Shown here one piece after another: positions 4,164 to 51,016 of a stretch of DNA of 64,000 bases (within the stretch, counting starts at the first letter, position 1; every line of letters starts with the position of its first letter). The notes under the pieces are model-generated. The model did not search any database and had not been told where the DNA came from. It saw only the letters and a list, made by a program, of their open reading frames with translations. A program made the translations under genes and the position numbers. The stretch covers positions 1 to 64,000 of the forward strand of contig JAHLVW010000101.1 in assembly GCA_019058275.1 (NCBI GenBank). Direction: 5' to 3'. The stretch comes from Candidatus Heimdallarchaeota archaeon. GTDB lineage: Archaea > Asgardarchaeota > Heimdallarchaeia > JABLTI01.

Positions 4164-4739
4164 GTGATACAAATGAATCCCAGTAAAAAAGTGTTAATCA
4201 TTGCTGAATTAGTAAAAGATAGAGTAATAATCTGGGATTTTGAACAAGGATCAAAGTTATATAATTCAGGATTTTTTGGAAAACCTATAGGTATTAGAAA
4301 ACCTAAAGGAGAAAGTTTTGAACGTCCTCTTGAATTGTCACTAATAGAAGCCTGTTATTTGTTAGAGAATGGTAGAATCAAAATACTACAGAAGAAAACA
4401 AAAAATGAAATCTCTATTAGAAATTTAATTAAAAAGGGACAAAAAGTCATTCCTTTGTTTGACGAGAAAATACTAATTTACAAAGACATTAGAAATCGTG
4501 GACTTGTACCTAGACCTGGTTTGAAATTCGGAGCTGATTTCGCAGTTTATCAACAAGGACCAGGATTAGATCATTCACCATACGTGATTACAGCATTACC
4601 TAGAGGAAGTGAATTATCAGCAATTGAGTTAGTACGAGCAGGAAGATTAGCAACTTCAGTGAGAAAAAAATTCGTTATTGCTACAATTCTATCTTCAAAC
4701 AAAGTAAAATATTATGGGTTTGTTTGGAATAAACCCTGA
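4164..4739 (+). CDS. endA: tRNA-splicing endonuclease, catalytic subunit
   Basis: LELSLIEACYL, GLKFGADFAVY, GPGLDHSPY, RLATSVRKK (Tyr/His/Lys triad). Confidence 0.93.
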   Translation: MIQMNPSKKVLIIAELVKDRVIIWDFEQGSKLYNSGFFGKPIGIRKPKGESFERPLELSLIEACYLLENGRIKILQKKTKNEISIRNLIKKGQKVIPLFDEKILIYKDIRNRGLVPRPGLKFGADFAVYQQGPGLDHSPYVITALPRGSELSAIELVRAGRLATSVRKKFVIATILSSNKVKYYGFVWNKP

Positions 4740-48636: not shown

Positions 48637-49272
48637 TTATTTTGAATATAATTTTTCCAACTCTTCTTTCATATTATATTTCAACAATATACCATACCAT
48701 GATGCATAATCCAATGCAAATAGAATATTCTTGCCTTCTAATTCTTCGAGTTTCTTACTAGTTTCCTTATCTGCTTTCTCGAACAGTTCAAAAATATACT
48801 CATCTCTCTCATTATCTATTTTGTCAAAGAATTTCCTGAATGCTTTGATATCACCTTTTTTATTGCCGCGAAGTTGTTTTAATATATAAAACATAGCATC
48901 GAAGATTGGTGACGTTAATTCGCCCTCTTCTTCTTTGCATAGAGCAATCTTCAGGATAAATGCATTTGCAAATCGCATGTAAAGAGTTTCACTGGATAAA
49001 TCAGATTCATCATGTGCAGTAATTCTTTTTCCAGCTTTTGCTACCAATTTGCCTTGAATCAATTTGTGCAAGTATCTATAGATGCTCTTGTCGGATTTTT
49101 CTTCACCTGTTTTCTTAAAAGCAGTCATAAGATCAGAAATTGTCATGGGACCTTGTCGAAGGAATTTCATTACTAAATTAAGATTTTCATCTTCAAACAA
49201 TTTAGCTCTTTTATCATCTTTAATGAAAACTAATTTCTGAGGTTTATAGGTTATAACATCTTGGGAAGCCAT
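48637..49272 (-). CDS. Winged-helix transcriptional regulator (tandem paralog 2)
   Basis: GPMTISDL...KSDKSIYRYLHKL...LVAKAGKR...ETLYMR. Confidence 0.82.
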   Translation of the reverse strand: MASQDVITYKPQKLVFIKDDKRAKLFEDENLNLVMKFLRQGPMTISDLMTAFKKTGEEKSDKSIYRYLHKLIQGKLVAKAGKRITAHDESDLSSETLYMRFANAFILKIALCKEEEGELTSPIFDAMFYILKQLRGNKKGDIKAFRKFFDKIDNERDEYIFELFEKADKETSKKLEELEGKNILFALDYASWYGILLKYNMKEELEKLYSK

Positions 49273-49278
49273 TTTTCA

Positions 49279-49920
49279 TCAACTCTTCATGCAATACTTT
49301 AGTTCCTTTTTTATATCGGTTTTAGTTGAGATTGCTACCCAACTTAGATAACACAACAAGTTCTCCAAGCTTTTCCAACCTAAATCATTAATTGCTTGGA
49401 TCGCATCTTCATCAGCATTCTTTATCAATTGAACTAATAGCTCATCTCTTTCTCTATCCAATTGAAATTGGAATTTTTGATAGCAGTCTGAATCCAAACT
49501 TTTTCCATCGAAAAATGGTTTTAAAAGTAATCTTGTGACATTGAAAACAGGACAGAATCCCTTTTCAAAAATTCCTTCATTGTGTTTCAAAGATTCTGGA
49601 AAAATGAAAATTTTAGCACTTCGCATATAGAGAGTCTCACTTTTCAGATCTTGCTCTGTAACTGAGACAATTCTTTTTCCAGCTTTTGCAACTAATTTAA
49701 CCTGAATTAATTTATGCAAATAACGATAAATCGTTTTATCAGATTTTACTTCTCCACTTTTCTTAAAATATTCAACAAGATCAGAAATAGTCATTGGTCC
49801 TTTCTGCAGGATTTTCAGCACAGGTTTTAGATTTTCATCCTTCAATAGATCTATTGTTTTATCTTCTTTAATAACTCTCACGACTTTTTGATTATATGTT
49901 ATCACATCTTGTGATTCCAT
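49279..49920 (-). CDS. Winged-helix transcriptional regulator (tandem paralog 1)
   Basis: GPMTISDL...KSDKTIYRYLHKL...LVAKAGKR...ETLYMR; DNA-binding half nearly identical to its neighbour's. Confidence 0.82.
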   Translation of the reverse strand: MESQDVITYNQKVVRVIKEDKTIDLLKDENLKPVLKILQKGPMTISDLVEYFKKSGEVKSDKTIYRYLHKLIQVKLVAKAGKRIVSVTEQDLKSETLYMRSAKIFIFPESLKHNEGIFEKGFCPVFNVTRLLLKPFFDGKSLDSDCYQKFQFQLDRERDELLVQLIKNADEDAIQAINDLGWKSLENLLCYLSWVAISTKTDIKKELKYCMKS

Positions 49921-50039
49921 TCCTGACCACCTTTGATTTTTTTAACATCAGTTCTAATTTTTCATTCGATTTTCGAATTAATTTTTCTGATTTTCACTCA
50001 AACTTATTTTATTTCTATATAATATACTAATTCTTACAG

Positions 50040-50114
50040 TATATAAATCTATTTCTCAATGCTATAATACGATTTTCTCGAGTGAATGAGAATATTTAAA
50101 TATTAAAATGAGAA
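50040..50114. promoter_or_regulatory. Divergent promoter pair with a symmetric four-half-site operator
   Basis: TTCTC at 50053 and 50075, GAGAA at 50088 and 50110, all symmetric about 50083.5. TATA-like boxes at 50040-50047 (-) and 50095-50102 (+). Confidence 0.65.
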
Positions 50115-50152
50115 TTGTTTCCCAGGGAACAAATAAGTTTCAGGTGGAAAAT

Positions 50153-50251
50153 TTGAAAGAAGTCAAGAAAAAGACTCAGAAAAAAAACCAGAAGGAGAAT
50201 GAAAAAATCAAAATCCTGCTTACAATGCAATACACGGATGGTTTGATATAA
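50153..50251 (+). CDS. Micro-ORF 1, 32 aa basic peptide
   Basis: AGGTGG RBS + TTG: MKEVKKKTQKKNQKENEKIKILLTMQYTDGLI*. Confidence 0.5.
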   Translation: MKEVKKKTQKKNQKENEKIKILLTMQYTDGLI

Positions 50252-50279
50252 TAACAAAAAAGGTATTCGGGGCAGTACC

Positions 50280-50363
50280 ATGAAACACAATAAAGATTCC
50301 AGAAAACAATTCAAAAAGGAACTTATTCCTGCCATAAAGATGATCACTGTTAGAAAAAATTGA
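50280..50363 (+). CDS. Micro-ORF 2, 27 aa basic peptide
   Basis: ATG preceded by a weak GGGG site: MKHNKDSRKQFKKELIPAIKMITVRKN*. Confidence 0.45.
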   Translation: MKHNKDSRKQFKKELIPAIKMITVRKN

Positions 50364-50393
50364 ATTAATGAAATAATCAAGGAGGAAAAAAAG

Positions 50394-50486
50394 TTGAAAC
50401 AGTATAATAATAAAGTTATAAAAAGAAAAATCAAACAAGATATGGAAAAGACCCGAAAACAATTCGCTTATTTCACAGGAAGGTAA
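50394..50486 (+). CDS. Micro-ORF 3, 30 aa basic peptide
   Basis: AAGGAGG RBS + TTG: MKQYNNKVIKRKIKQDMEKTRKQFAYFTGR*. Confidence 0.55.
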   Translation: MKQYNNKVIKRKIKQDMEKTRKQFAYFTGR

Positions 50487-50498
50487 AAATACTGATAA

Positions 50499-50521
50499 TA
50501 GGGAGAGCTACCATCTCCCTA
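50499..50521 (+). terminator. Hairpin after the micro-ORF array
   Basis: TAGGGAGA-GCTACCA-TCTCCCTA, 12 nt after the last stop; no clear U-tract. Confidence 0.45.
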
Positions 50522-50599: not shown

Positions 50600-51016
50600 T
50601 TAATCAATGGGAATGTAAACTTCATGAACATGTACCCATTCTACACCATTCATAGTATCTTCTTTTTTCCGAAATAAAGCTGAGCTTAGTCGAGCATTTG
50701 TCTTACCTAGGACTTCTCCCCATTCTTCATAGGTGACTAAACAAAGATTAGGTTCAATCAAACAGCATTGGATGTTCTTAACCCAGAGACGATAAGGTAT
50801 AGCATCGTTTTTACGAAAACCATAGCCATCTCTAATTTGTACTAATAGATCCTCTCGAGTAGTTACCTTCCCTGTTGGCATGATAAGCATAAATTTCTCA
50901 TTCATAACATTCTCAAATCTCGCATATGTTTCGTCATCATTCTCAATTTCTGATTTGAACCATTGCTCAAAGAATTTGTGCAAACCAATTACTTCTTTCT
51001 CACATTGTTTTTCCAA
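50600..51016 (-). CDS. DUF4440/NTF2-like protein
   Basis: EV..LH.FFE.WF, F.LI.P.G, LVTYEEW, RLSSALF, W.HVHE. Confidence 0.82.
   Translation of the reverse strand: MEKQCEKEVIGLHKFFEQWFKSEIENDDETYARFENVMNEKFMLIMPTGKVTTREDLLVQIRDGYGFRKNDAIPYRLWVKNIQCCLIEPNLCLVTYEEWGEVLGKTNARLSSALFRKKEDTMNGVEWVHVHEVYIPID

What the first reader, a model, noticed from the sequence alone, without database searches (positions are those of the whole stretch)
50153..50521. Array of three ~30-aa basic micro-ORFs divergent from tandem wHTH regulators
Seen: a region the track covers only with Phe-rich antisense shadow ORFs contains three non-overlapping, co-oriented ORFs of 32, 27 and 30 aa spaced ~28-30 nt apart. All start MK, have a Lys-rich body and a more hydrophobic end. 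Two have good RBSs (AGGTGG, AAGGAGG) and two share [ST]RKQF. A TATA box precedes them and a hairpin follows. Inference: a regulated micropeptide operon. The peptides could be ligands of the regulators' divergent C-terminal domains, nucleic-acid or ribosome binders, or toxic peptides.
Basis: partly seen in the sequence, partly recalled or inferred. Interest (0 to 1): 0.75.

Follow-up and report, generated by a model that had tools for sequence, protein, structure and literature searches.

The report
Repressor-controlled three-gene micro-protein operon
Three tiny genes for roughly 30-residue, lysine-rich proteins are real, conserved, and wired to a neighbouring DNA-binding repressor in one genus of Heimdall-group Asgard archaea, but what the small proteins do is still unknown.

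Summary
Confirmed. Window 50153-50486 holds three separate genes, each with its own ribosome-binding site. They encode lysine-rich proteins of 32, 27 and 30 residues. They are transcribed from a TATA box that lies inside a four-half-site TTCTCA/TGAGAA operator, and the unit ends at a stem-loop.

The same ORF1-ORF2-ORF3 array is present at ten further loci in six genomes of the genus, including a paralogous array in this genome. Wherever the flank is assembled it lies divergent from a PH1932/Phr-type winged-helix repressor gene. Starts, stops, ribosome-binding sites and the hairpin are kept. pN/pS is 0.36 for ORF1 and 0.39 for ORF3, against about 1 in shifted frames, and 0.63 for ORF2. The ORFs never fuse into a larger gene.

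ORF3 belongs to an undescribed family of about 29 residues, with 2-14 copies per genome. Among 400 Asgard genomes it occurs only in this archaeal family. ORF1 occurs only in these arrays.

The regulator and its operator are older and wider (107 of 400 genomes) and elsewhere face ordinary genes. The micro-genes are therefore most likely recruited targets of the repressor, encoding intracellular basic one-helix proteins of unknown function.

Peptide signalling of the RRNPP type is unsupported but not excluded.

The scan had already found this circuit at other loci, in this genome and in another genome.

The parts
49279..49920 (-). Proximal winged-helix regulator (213 aa), PH1932/Phr type, divergent from the micro-gene operon
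   Evidence: Profile match to PDB 1ULY over the full length, E 8.8e-5. Foldseek match of the AF2 model (pLDDT 84.8) to 1ULY/2CWE at E 1e-9, then Phr 2P4W and PadR/VanR. Weak Pfam HTH_5 hit.
48637..49272 (-). Second, tandem regulator paralog (211 aa), 46-49% identical to the first
   Evidence: The recognition-helix region is invariant across the family.
50039..50048 (-). TATA-like box for the leftward (regulator) promoter
   Evidence: GT(A/T)TATAAAT is conserved in all 10 aligned promoter regions. Assigning it as the promoter is an inference.
50053..50114 (.). Operator: half-sites TTCTCA 50053-58, TTCTCG 50075-80, TGAGAA 50087-92 and TGAGAA 50109-14. The central pair forms the TTCTCR-N6-TGAGAA palindrome that abuts the TATA box.
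   Evidence: Conserved in 10 paralogous or orthologous promoters. The exact TTCTCA-N6-TGAGAA occurs 11 times in this genome against 0.5 expected, and only 0-3 times at other spacings. The same palindrome lies upstream of distant regulator homologs.
50095..50102 (+). TATA box of the micro-gene operon
   Evidence: TT(A/T)A(A/T)ATA is conserved between the palindrome and the third TGAGAA half-site in all arrays.
50143..50147 (+). Shine-Dalgarno site of ORF1
   Evidence: GGTG is conserved upstream of the start in 8 of 10 arrays: 5 nt here, 7-8 nt in most relatives.
50153..50251 (+). ORF1, 32 aa, pI 9.8. Lys-rich N-terminal half and a nearly invariant 15-residue tail ending in DGLI.
   Evidence: The start is ATG, GTG or TTG at the same position in relatives. 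pN/pS is 0.36 against 0.80 and 1.00 in shifted frames. The family occurs only in genus g1, in 7 of 11 genomes including this one. Every copy examined lies inside such an array; the G009 copy sits next to a regulator gene, but its array was not examined. AF2 predicts a single helix over residues 3-28, pLDDT 80.
50280..50363 (+). ORF2, 27 aa, pI 10.7; the least constrained of the three
   Evidence: The ATG is conserved in all 10 arrays and GGAGG-type SD sites are present in relatives. pN/pS is 0.63. Its N-terminal half aligns to the ORF3 family profile (hhalign P 1.8e-4, probability 48%).
50379..50385 (+). Shine-Dalgarno site of ORF3
   Evidence: AAGGAGG lies 8 nt before the TTG start.
50394..50486 (+). 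ORF3, 30 aa, pI 10.5; member of a multi-copy family of about 29 residues with a conserved R-x-x-F-A-L-x-x-G tail
   Evidence: pN/pS is 0.39 against 1.02 and 1.46 in shifted frames. There are 10 copies in this genome. The family is found only in family f1 among 400 Asgard genomes. 34 clusters of micro-proteins, most 28-32 aa and called up to 86 aa, occur among 1.84 billion representative proteins.
50500..50520 (+). Stem-loop closing the operon (7-bp stem, 7-nt loop)
   Evidence: MFE is -12.5 kcal/mol. A stem-loop follows ORF3 in all 11 arrays, with a different sequence in the window/G004 lineage than in the others, and it starts 0-15 nt after the stop codon.

Best explanation
This is a genuine tricistronic operon for three cytoplasmic, strongly basic micro-proteins. 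It is the local target of the divergently encoded PH1932/Phr-type winged-helix repressors.

Shown:
- There are three separate cistrons, each with its own SD site, under protein-level selection.
- One conserved TATA promoter is flanked on both sides by TTCTCA/TGAGAA half-sites.
- A conserved terminal stem-loop closes the unit.
- At every locus where the flank is assembled, the array is linked to a regulator gene of this family.

Inferred:
- Regulator dimers occupy the palindrome that abuts the TATA box and the half-site just downstream of it. This blocks TBP/TFB/RNA polymerase at both divergent promoters, so the regulators repress themselves as well.
- A signal sensed by the variable C-terminal domain releases the repressor, and the three micro-proteins are made together.
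- The micro-proteins have no hydrophobic export or membrane segment. They therefore act inside the cell by binding a macromolecular partner (nucleic acid, ribosome or protein), much like other repressor-controlled small basic proteins.
- The regulator and operator are ancient and the micro-genes are a genus- or family-level novelty, so the micro-genes were recruited as outputs of the circuit rather than being its obligatory ligands.
For: Coding and conservation:
- The arrays are conserved in order, spacing, start codon position, SD sites and stops at 10 other loci in 6 genomes.
- pN/pS is 0.36 for ORF1 and 0.39 for ORF3, against 0.8-1.46 in shifted frames.
- None of 5000 shuffles reproduces the three ORFs.

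Wiring:
- The promoter and operator architecture is conserved in 10 promoters.
- The palindrome is 22-fold over-represented at N6 spacing in the genome. It also precedes other genes: an SBP_bac_5 protein, beta-lactamase-family proteins, DJ-1/PfpI and a radical SAM protein.
- The regulator is homologous to PH1932 and structurally next to Phr, a known repressor that binds over the transcription start (PMC6316755).

Output rather than ligand:
- The regulator family is in 107 of 400 Asgard genomes, while the ORF3 family is in 12 and the ORF1 family in 7.
- 16 distant regulator loci show no convincing divergent Lys-rich micro-ORF array. Three isolated 23-24-aa basic ORFs at two of these loci were not followed up.
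- In genus g4 the regulator, with the same palindrome at three of the loci, faces a conserved gene of about 310 aa.
- ORF3-family copies also lie behind a different palindrome, next to bactofilin-domain and Ras-GTPase genes, in conserved synteny.

Intracellular location:
- pI is 9.8-10.7, GRAVY is -1.1 to -1.5, and no hydrophobic window is long enough for a signal peptide or membrane helix.
Against:
- Binding of the regulators to the palindrome rests on conservation and family analogy and has not been measured.
- The micro-proteins have no homolog of known function, so 'binds a macromolecular partner' is generic.
- Five of the ten ORF3-family copies in this genome, and every ORF1 copy examined, lie next to a regulator of this family. 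That degree of linkage would also fit a direct regulator-peptide partnership.
- A family-5 solute-binding protein shares the operator, which fits an uptake or signalling reading.
Confidence: 0.55

Rival explanations
1. The micro-proteins are partners of the adjacent regulators. Either they are intracellular co- or anti-repressors that close a feedback loop, or they are exported and re-imported signals in the manner of Rgg/SHP or PrgX/PrgQ.
For: - Small peptide genes lie divergent from their regulator at every array and at three single-gene modules.
- Regulator paralogs keep an invariant recognition helix but diverge in the C-terminal domain, and the linked peptides diverge with them.
- A secreted SBP_bac_5 protein carries the same operator at its promoter.
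- The layout of a variable basic N-terminus and a conserved C-terminus recalls pro-peptides.
Against: - The C-terminal domain is the PH1932/Phr helical domain; no TPR-type receptor fold or Pfam hit was found.
- The peptides have no signal peptide or hydrophobic stretch for export.
- The regulator family works elsewhere without any micro-ORF.
- Half of the ORF3-family copies sit in other regulons.
- SBP family 5 proteins also bind nickel and sugars (established knowledge).
- Co-divergence of regulator and peptide is also expected from simple segmental duplication.
Confidence: 0.2
2. The ORFs act in cis. Their translation (for example a ribosome pausing on the conserved C-terminal peptide at the stop codon, right in front of the stem-loop) controls transcript termination or stability, and the peptides themselves have no function in trans.
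For: - The ORF3 family has a strikingly fixed length (about 29 aa, which fits inside the ribosomal tunnel). Conservation is concentrated in the last ~12 residues, directly before the stop.
- A stem-loop begins 0-15 nt after the stop in all arrays.
- Two family members lie 25-30 nt upstream of larger co-oriented genes.
Against: - Nothing lies downstream of the array to be controlled. The next gene is convergent and differs between genomes: an S6PP_C-like gene here, and an unrelated ~307-aa gene (DegV-like by eye, not scanned) in G002, G003 and G005.
- The same peptide family occurs in at least five unrelated contexts.
- ORF1 and ORF2 have no such geometry.
Confidence: 0.08
3. The peptides are toxic or growth-arresting and are kept silent by the repressors, as an addiction or stress module.
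For: - The peptides are small, cationic and tightly repressed, and they are multi-copy and lineage-restricted.
- The flanking genes differ between genomes.
Against: - There is no membrane-spanning segment as in type I toxins.
- The arrangement is divergent rather than a co-transcribed toxin-antitoxin pair.
- Other family members sit in stable syntenic chromosomal positions across the genus.
- No mobile-element genes lie nearby.
Confidence: 0.07
4. The region is a non-coding RNA or plain A-rich spacer, and the ORFs are accidental.
For: The AT skew is very strong (0.36-0.40) in an AT-rich genome, which by itself yields Lys-rich frames.
Against: - Frame-specific purifying selection.
- Start codons switch among ATG, GTG and TTG at a fixed position.
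- SD sites are conserved.
- No Rfam match better than E 8.
- None of 5000 shuffles reproduces the pattern.
- Gene callers independently report members of the ORF3 family in many metagenomes.
Confidence: 0.03

Closest known systems
Phr (PF1790, PDB 2P4W) heat-shock repressor of Pyrococcus furiosus and its relative PH1932 (PDB 1ULY/2CWE)
   Same: The adjacent regulators share the fold and length: an N-terminal ArsR-like winged helix plus a C-terminal helical domain. Like Phr they appear to sit on a palindromic site at the TATA/start region and to control their own gene plus a small regulon (PMC6316755).
   Different: Sequence identity is only about 21-22%. The half-site (TTCTCA) differs from the Phr site. 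The target here is a micro-protein operon, which is not described for Phr or PH1932. The signal is unknown, and nothing points to heat shock.
Rgg/SHP, PrgX/PrgQ and other RRNPP peptide-sensing systems of Firmicutes (established knowledge)
   Same: A very short peptide gene is divergently transcribed from its regulator, with overlapping promoters. The peptide has a basic N-terminus and a conserved C-terminal part. An Opp-type (family 5) binding protein is in the same regulon elsewhere in the genome.
   Different: The receptor has no TPR domain. The peptides lack any hydrophobic export segment. There are three cistrons, not one. The organisms are archaea. The regulator family exists widely without peptides.
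Fur-regulated basic proteins FbpA/B/C of Bacillus subtilis
   Same: They are small (29-59 aa), strongly basic proteins whose genes are direct targets of a repressor. They are thought to act inside the cell on RNA.
   Different: There is no sequence relationship, as far as the generic Pfam, NCBIfam and PDB scans of the peptides can show; no direct comparison with Fbp sequences was run. The regulator family and the domain of life differ. Here three peptides form one operon that is physically tied to the regulator gene.
Small proteomes of Haloferax volcanii and Methanosarcina mazei found by Ribo-seq (PMC10117724, PMC11456600; titles and abstracts only)
   Same: They show that archaea translate many unannotated ORFs of 70 aa or fewer. 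This operon is of that general kind.
   Different: I did not read the catalogues of these papers; the Pfam, NCBIfam, PDB and Atlas scans found no known relative of the peptides. Those studies provide translation evidence, which is lacking here.

Membership tests
PH1932/Phr-type archaeal ArsR-like regulators (the neighbouring genes) | N-terminal winged helix-turn-helix of the ArsR/SmtB type | tested here: met
   Pfam HTH_5 at E 2.6e-4, just under the cutoff. The AF2 model has helices 31-72 and a long beta wing at 76-105. Foldseek matches SmtB/CzrA/PadR at probability 1.0.
PH1932/Phr-type archaeal ArsR-like regulators (the neighbouring genes) | Full-length similarity, including the C-terminal helical domain of about 100 residues | tested here: met
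   The profile of 20 family members matches 1ULY over residues 12-192 of 211, E 8.8e-5. Foldseek gives 1ULY at E 1.1e-9 over 204 columns, TM 0.51-0.56.
PH1932/Phr-type archaeal ArsR-like regulators (the neighbouring genes) | Binds a palindromic operator at the promoter and represses | not testable with these tools
   This is inferred only, from the palindrome conserved in 10 promoters and its enrichment in the genome.
RRNPP peptide-receptor systems | Receptor with a TPR-type peptide-binding domain | tested here: not met
   No TPR hit in Pfam. The structural matches are PH1932, Phr and PadR, with no RRNPP receptor in the top 50.
RRNPP peptide-receptor systems | Pro-peptide with a signal sequence or hydrophobic segment for export | tested here: not met
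   The maximum 9-residue Kyte-Doolittle mean is 1.0, 1.7 and -0.8 for the three peptides. The N-terminal halves are highly charged.
RRNPP peptide-receptor systems | Import of the mature peptide by an oligopeptide permease | tested here: inconclusive
   A secreted SBP_bac_5 protein shares the operator on contig C55. No permease genes were seen next to it, and its ligand is unknown.
ORF3 micro-protein family (undescribed; defined by alignment A1) | About 29 residues, a Lys-rich N-terminal half, an invariant Arg and a near-invariant Gly in an R-x-x-F-A-L-x-x-G tail two residues from the stop | tested here: met
   ORF3 scores 55.8 bits, E 2.6e-14 per genome, against the family profile (ORF3 is itself one of the 13 sequences in A1, so this score is partly circular). 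The alignment is and metagenomic members are.
Type I toxins and other small membrane peptides | A hydrophobic helix long enough to span or insert into a membrane | tested here: not met
   GRAVY is -1.1 to -1.5, and the longest hydrophobic run is 4-6 residues.
Leader or arrest peptides of attenuators | A co-oriented downstream gene whose expression depends on the leader | tested here: not met
   A stem-loop and then a convergent gene follow the array, here and in relatives.
MicroProteins derived from a domain of their target (miP concept, PMC6003976) | Sequence relationship to part of the larger partner protein | tested here: not met
   hhalign of the ORF1 and ORF3 profiles against the regulator profile gives probability 0.5% or less.

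The most novel reading that the evidence does not exclude
The arrays encode peptide signals or intracellular peptide ligands. These would be sensed by the paralogous PH1932-like repressors (with the co-regulated family-5 binding protein as the uptake route). That would be a peptide-responsive transcription circuit, functionally analogous to RRNPP quorum sensing but built from unrelated parts, and would be the first such system in Archaea and in the lineage closest to eukaryotes.
Probability: 0.08. Interest if true: 0.85.

Novelty: new variant of a known kind. Interest (0 to 1): 0.55.

Why it matters
Genes this short are invisible to standard annotation, and almost nothing is known about small proteins in Asgard archaea. 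This locus gives three micro-protein genes with unusually good comparative support and a defined promoter and operator. It also gives a tractable regulator with a solved structural relative.

The circuit can be rebuilt in vitro using recombinant regulator, a 62-bp operator and synthetic peptides, without needing a cultured host. It also shows how an old repressor-operator pair acquired lineage-specific micro-genes as new outputs.

If the peptides turned out to bind the regulators, it would be the first peptide-responsive transcription switch in Archaea.

Tried and rejected
- Complex prediction of two regulator copies with ORF3 returned 'no answer'. It is not used as evidence either way.
- The word-index protein search refuses queries under 40 aa, and the contig look-up refuses proteins under 30 aa.
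- Rfam gave only chance-level hits, E 8 or worse.
- Pfam, NCBIfam, PDB sequence profiles and the ESM Atlas found nothing for the three peptides.
- One decayed larger gene: rejected, because all arrays keep three separate SD-led ORFs.
- Stop-codon read-through joining ORF2 and ORF3: rejected. They share a frame with only a TGA between them in this window, but in the 92%-identical G004 locus the two ORFs are in different frames.
- The 47-aa ATG-extended ORF1: rejected, because that ATG lies in the operator half-site.
- Micro-proteins as fragments of the regulator: rejected.
- A PIP-box-like reading of the ORF1 tail was considered.
- Small ORFs downstream of the other operator sites in the genome: none resembles these families.
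- Literature searches found no description of the regulator-peptide pairing or of the peptide families.

Full report
**What is in the window.**
The 680-nt gap between the start of a minus-strand winged-helix gene (49279-49920) and the end of a convergent S6PP_C/DUF4440-like gene (50600-51016) carries three plus-strand ORFs exactly as reported:
- ORF1, 50153-50251 (TTG start, 32 aa).
- ORF2, 50280-50363 (ATG, 27 aa).
- ORF3, 50394-50486 (TTG, 30 aa).

The stretch has an extreme A-over-T skew of 0.36-0.40. It is single-copy at the DNA level in the 4.1-Mb assembly. Rfam gives nothing better than E 8. None of 5000 shuffles of the 334 nt yields three non-overlapping ORFs of 27 aa or more.

**Conservation.**
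A DNA search of 40 relatives found the gap in five genomes of the same genus: G004 at 92% identity, and G002, G003, G005 and G007 at 65-72%. At four of these loci it lies beside one or two homologs of the winged-helix gene. The G004 contig ends inside the array, so that flank is unknown.

Alignment shows all three ORFs in the same order in every one of them. Each has a start codon at the same position, switching among ATG, GTG and TTG. Each keeps its stop and its own SD site: GGTG before ORF1 and GGAGG/GAGGT before ORF2.

HMMs of the three peptides, run against every stop-to-stop frame of this genome, found a second, paralogous full array on contig C55 (178714-179033). It is again divergent from a regulator paralog. 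G003, G004, G005 and G007 also carry two arrays each.

Nei-Gojobori counts over nine arrays give pN/pS of 0.36 for ORF1, 0.39 for ORF3 and 0.63 for ORF2. The same alignments read in the two shifted frames give 0.80 and 1.00 for ORF1 and 1.02 and 1.46 for ORF3. ORF1 and ORF3 are therefore under protein-level purifying selection, and ORF2 is under weaker constraint.

The 112-aa and 80-aa antisense ORFs are shadows of the Lys codons: the same gap has no ORF of 60 aa or more in G002, G003 or G005.

**Corrections to the description.**
- The 47-aa ATG-initiated form of ORF1 is an artefact. Its ATG (50108) is part of a conserved TGAGAA half-site, and in relatives it opens a different frame.
- The word [ST]RKQF shared by ORF2 and ORF3 is private to this window and G004.
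- What is conserved is the ORF1 tail (15 nearly invariant residues ending DGLI), the ORF3 tail (R-x-x-F-A-L-x-x-G-R), and a K-x-x-I-K-K word in the N-terminal halves of ORF2 and ORF3.
- The ORF2 and ORF3 profiles align weakly over that N-terminal word (hhalign P 1.8e-4, probability 48%). ORF2 may be a truncated relative of ORF3.

**Promoter, operator and terminator.**
Ten array promoters align into one architecture: TTCTCA-N6-TGAGAA, then one to two bases, then the TATA box, then a third TGAGAA, then a conserved TTTCC region, then the GGTG SD site and the start.

The window coordinates are:
- Half-sites at 50053, 50075, 50087 and 50109.
- Rightward TATA box at 50095-50102.
- Leftward TATA-like box at 50039-50048.

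This agrees with the separate first-reader note on the operator (e1-5538514).

The exact palindrome with N6 spacing occurs 11 times in the genome against 0.5 expected, and 0-3 times at other spacings. Those sites lie at the promoters of other regulator paralogs and of several other genes:
- a secreted SBP_bac_5 protein,
- two beta-lactamase-family proteins,
- a DJ-1/PfpI protein,
- a radical SAM protein,
- an LVIVD-repeat protein.

A stem-loop follows ORF3 in all 11 arrays, starting 0-15 nt after the stop. The window/G004 lineage uses a different sequence from the others, so it is the position that is conserved.

**The regulators.**
The two tandem genes are 46-49% identical, and the family has seven close paralogs in this genome. 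Databases list only hypothetical proteins of Heimdallarchaeota MAGs for this family.

A family profile matches PH1932 of Pyrococcus horikoshii (PDB 1ULY) over the full length at E 8.8e-5. The AF2 model (pLDDT 84.8) hits 1ULY/2CWE at E 1e-9. The next matches are the Pyrococcus heat-shock repressor Phr (2P4W) and two-domain PadR/VanR regulators. Phr is a repressor that binds a palindromic site over the transcription start (PMC6316755).

No TPR or other peptide-receptor fold appears.

**The micro-proteins.**
All three are strongly basic (pI 9.8-10.7) and hydrophilic (GRAVY -1.1 to -1.5). None has a segment that could serve as a signal peptide or membrane helix. AF2 models ORF1 as one helix, residues 3-28, at pLDDT 80. 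None has a match in Pfam, NCBIfam, PDB or the ESM Atlas. None is related to the regulator.

ORF3 belongs to a family with 10 copies in this genome. Among 400 Asgard genomes the family is found only in family f1: all 10 genomes of the genus plus one sister genus, at 1-14 copies each (2-14 within the genus). Among 1.84 billion representative proteins it forms 34 clusters, mostly of exactly 29 residues, none of them named.

Half of the copies here lie divergent from regulators of this family. These are the two arrays, one extra copy on C55, and two single-gene modules on C55 and C1. The remaining copies are:
- one just upstream of a bactofilin-domain gene,
- one just upstream of a coiled-coil protein with a C-terminal winged helix,
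- a tandem pair after a HEAT-Ras GTPase gene, syntenic across the genus,
- a tandem pair after Gar1-SRP19.

The bactofilin-linked and Ras-linked copies carry a different upstream palindrome (GTCACAA-N-TTGTGAC), so they belong to another regulon.

The ORF1 family is confined to the genus. It is in 7 of 11 genomes including this one, and every copy examined lies inside such an array.

**Which came first.**
The regulator family is present in 107 of 400 Asgard genomes across many families. I fetched 16 loci from other genera. Their upstream gaps are mostly 100-400 nt. Three of the genus g4 loci carry the same TTCTCA-N6-TGAGAA palindrome, and none has a convincing divergent Lys-rich micro-ORF array. 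In genus g4 the divergent partner is a conserved gene of about 310 aa.

The repressor-operator pair is therefore old, and the micro-genes are a recent addition in one lineage. This makes 'recruited output of the repressor' more parsimonious than 'cognate ligand of the repressor'. The expanded paralogs of this genus could still have evolved peptide binding.

**Mechanism, with its status.**

Shown: three translated-looking cistrons on one promoter-to-hairpin unit, an operator that brackets the TATA box, and physical linkage to the regulator genes.

Inferred, as the best-supported model (confidence 0.55 for the whole):
- The regulators repress both divergent promoters by occluding the TATA/TFB region.
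- An unknown signal relieves repression.
- The three basic one-helix proteins then act in the cytoplasm on a macromolecular partner.

The rivals are:
- regulator ligands or signalling peptides (0.2; the shared-operator SBP_bac_5 protein is the main argument for it),
- cis-acting translation-dependent control (0.08),
- toxic peptides (0.07),
- non-coding sequence (0.03).

**Relation to earlier notes of this scan.**
Follow-up reports e1-5538212, e1-5538222 and e1-5538223 describe the paralogous C55 locus of this same genome, and e1-5383131 describes a tandem pair in another genome. They reached essentially the same picture: a real family of about 29 residues, Phr/PH1932-like repressors, a shared operator, and unknown function. 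I re-derived these points independently before reading them. I then checked the solute-binding-protein lead and the second-operator lead myself.

This window adds the following:
- the orthologous conservation of the whole array in five further genomes,
- the frame-specific selection figures,
- the ORF1 family and its restriction to arrays,
- the corrected ORF1 start,
- the conserved terminal hairpin,
- the finding that distant regulator homologs lack micro-ORFs.

**Limits.**
The single complex-prediction job gave no verdict. Genomes of the genus are 64-90% complete, so absences of ORF1 in four of them are not firm.

Noticed in passing
G000 contig C55 172422-172547 (L012) versus contig C1 107468-107563 (L013): The ORF3-like gene beside the C55 171615-172250 regulator has lost its in-frame start. 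Compared with its near-identical paralog on C1, a run of seven A is six A, which shifts the frame. This could be a pseudogene, a homopolymer assembly error, or slippage on the A-run.
   Followed up: partly
L003/L028 (G002 contig C258), ORF3 ortholog: In G002 the ORF3 ortholog carries an in-frame TAA seven codons before the normal end. The conserved F-A-L-F-T-G-R tail is still encoded after it.
   Followed up: no
G000 contig C69 about 4400-4520 and contig C22 about 71430-71560 (L021, L022): ORF3-family genes that are not next to the regulator share a different perfect palindrome, GTCACAA-C-TTGTGAC, followed by a conserved block and a TATA box. This is a second operator controlling the same micro-protein family.
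   Followed up: partly
G000 contig C102 1343-1560 (L020): Directly downstream of SRP19 and Gar1 lie two tandem ORF3-family genes. The upstream one ends in C-L-L-T-G-C. Both have the same TGGAGA-type SD context as the C69 pair.
   Followed up: partly
G000 contig C55 173600-175384 (L075): This is a 594-aa secreted SBP_bac_5 protein whose promoter has the palindrome-then-TATA layout of the micro-gene promoters. It lies between two regulator/micro-gene modules, and no ABC permease genes are adjacent.
   Followed up: partly
G000 contig C55 178294-178700 versus G005 C143 (L051) and G007 C37 (L052): In relatives a second regulator gene lies between the extra ORF3-like gene and the array. In this genome that regulator is missing, but the array promoter and operator are intact.
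   Followed up: no
window 50361-50396: ORF2 and ORF3 are in the same frame here, separated only by a TGA and ten sense codons. In the 92%-identical G004 locus the two ORFs are in different frames, so this looks accidental.
   Followed up: yes
window 50600-51016 and G000 contig C98 48971-49375 (L072): The convergent neighbour is an S6PP_C/DUF4440-like protein of the NTF2-like kind. Another protein of a similar kind (Lumazine_bd_2 hit) lies downstream of one of the genomic TTCTCA-N6-TGAGAA sites.
   Followed up: no
L077-L080, L087 (genus g4 genomes G088, G025, G033, G086, G084): Distant homologs of the regulator are divergently paired with a conserved gene of about 310 aa (not scanned against Pfam). 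At three of the five loci the same TTCTCA-N6-TGAGAA palindrome lies in a gap of about 160-190 nt.
   Followed up: partly
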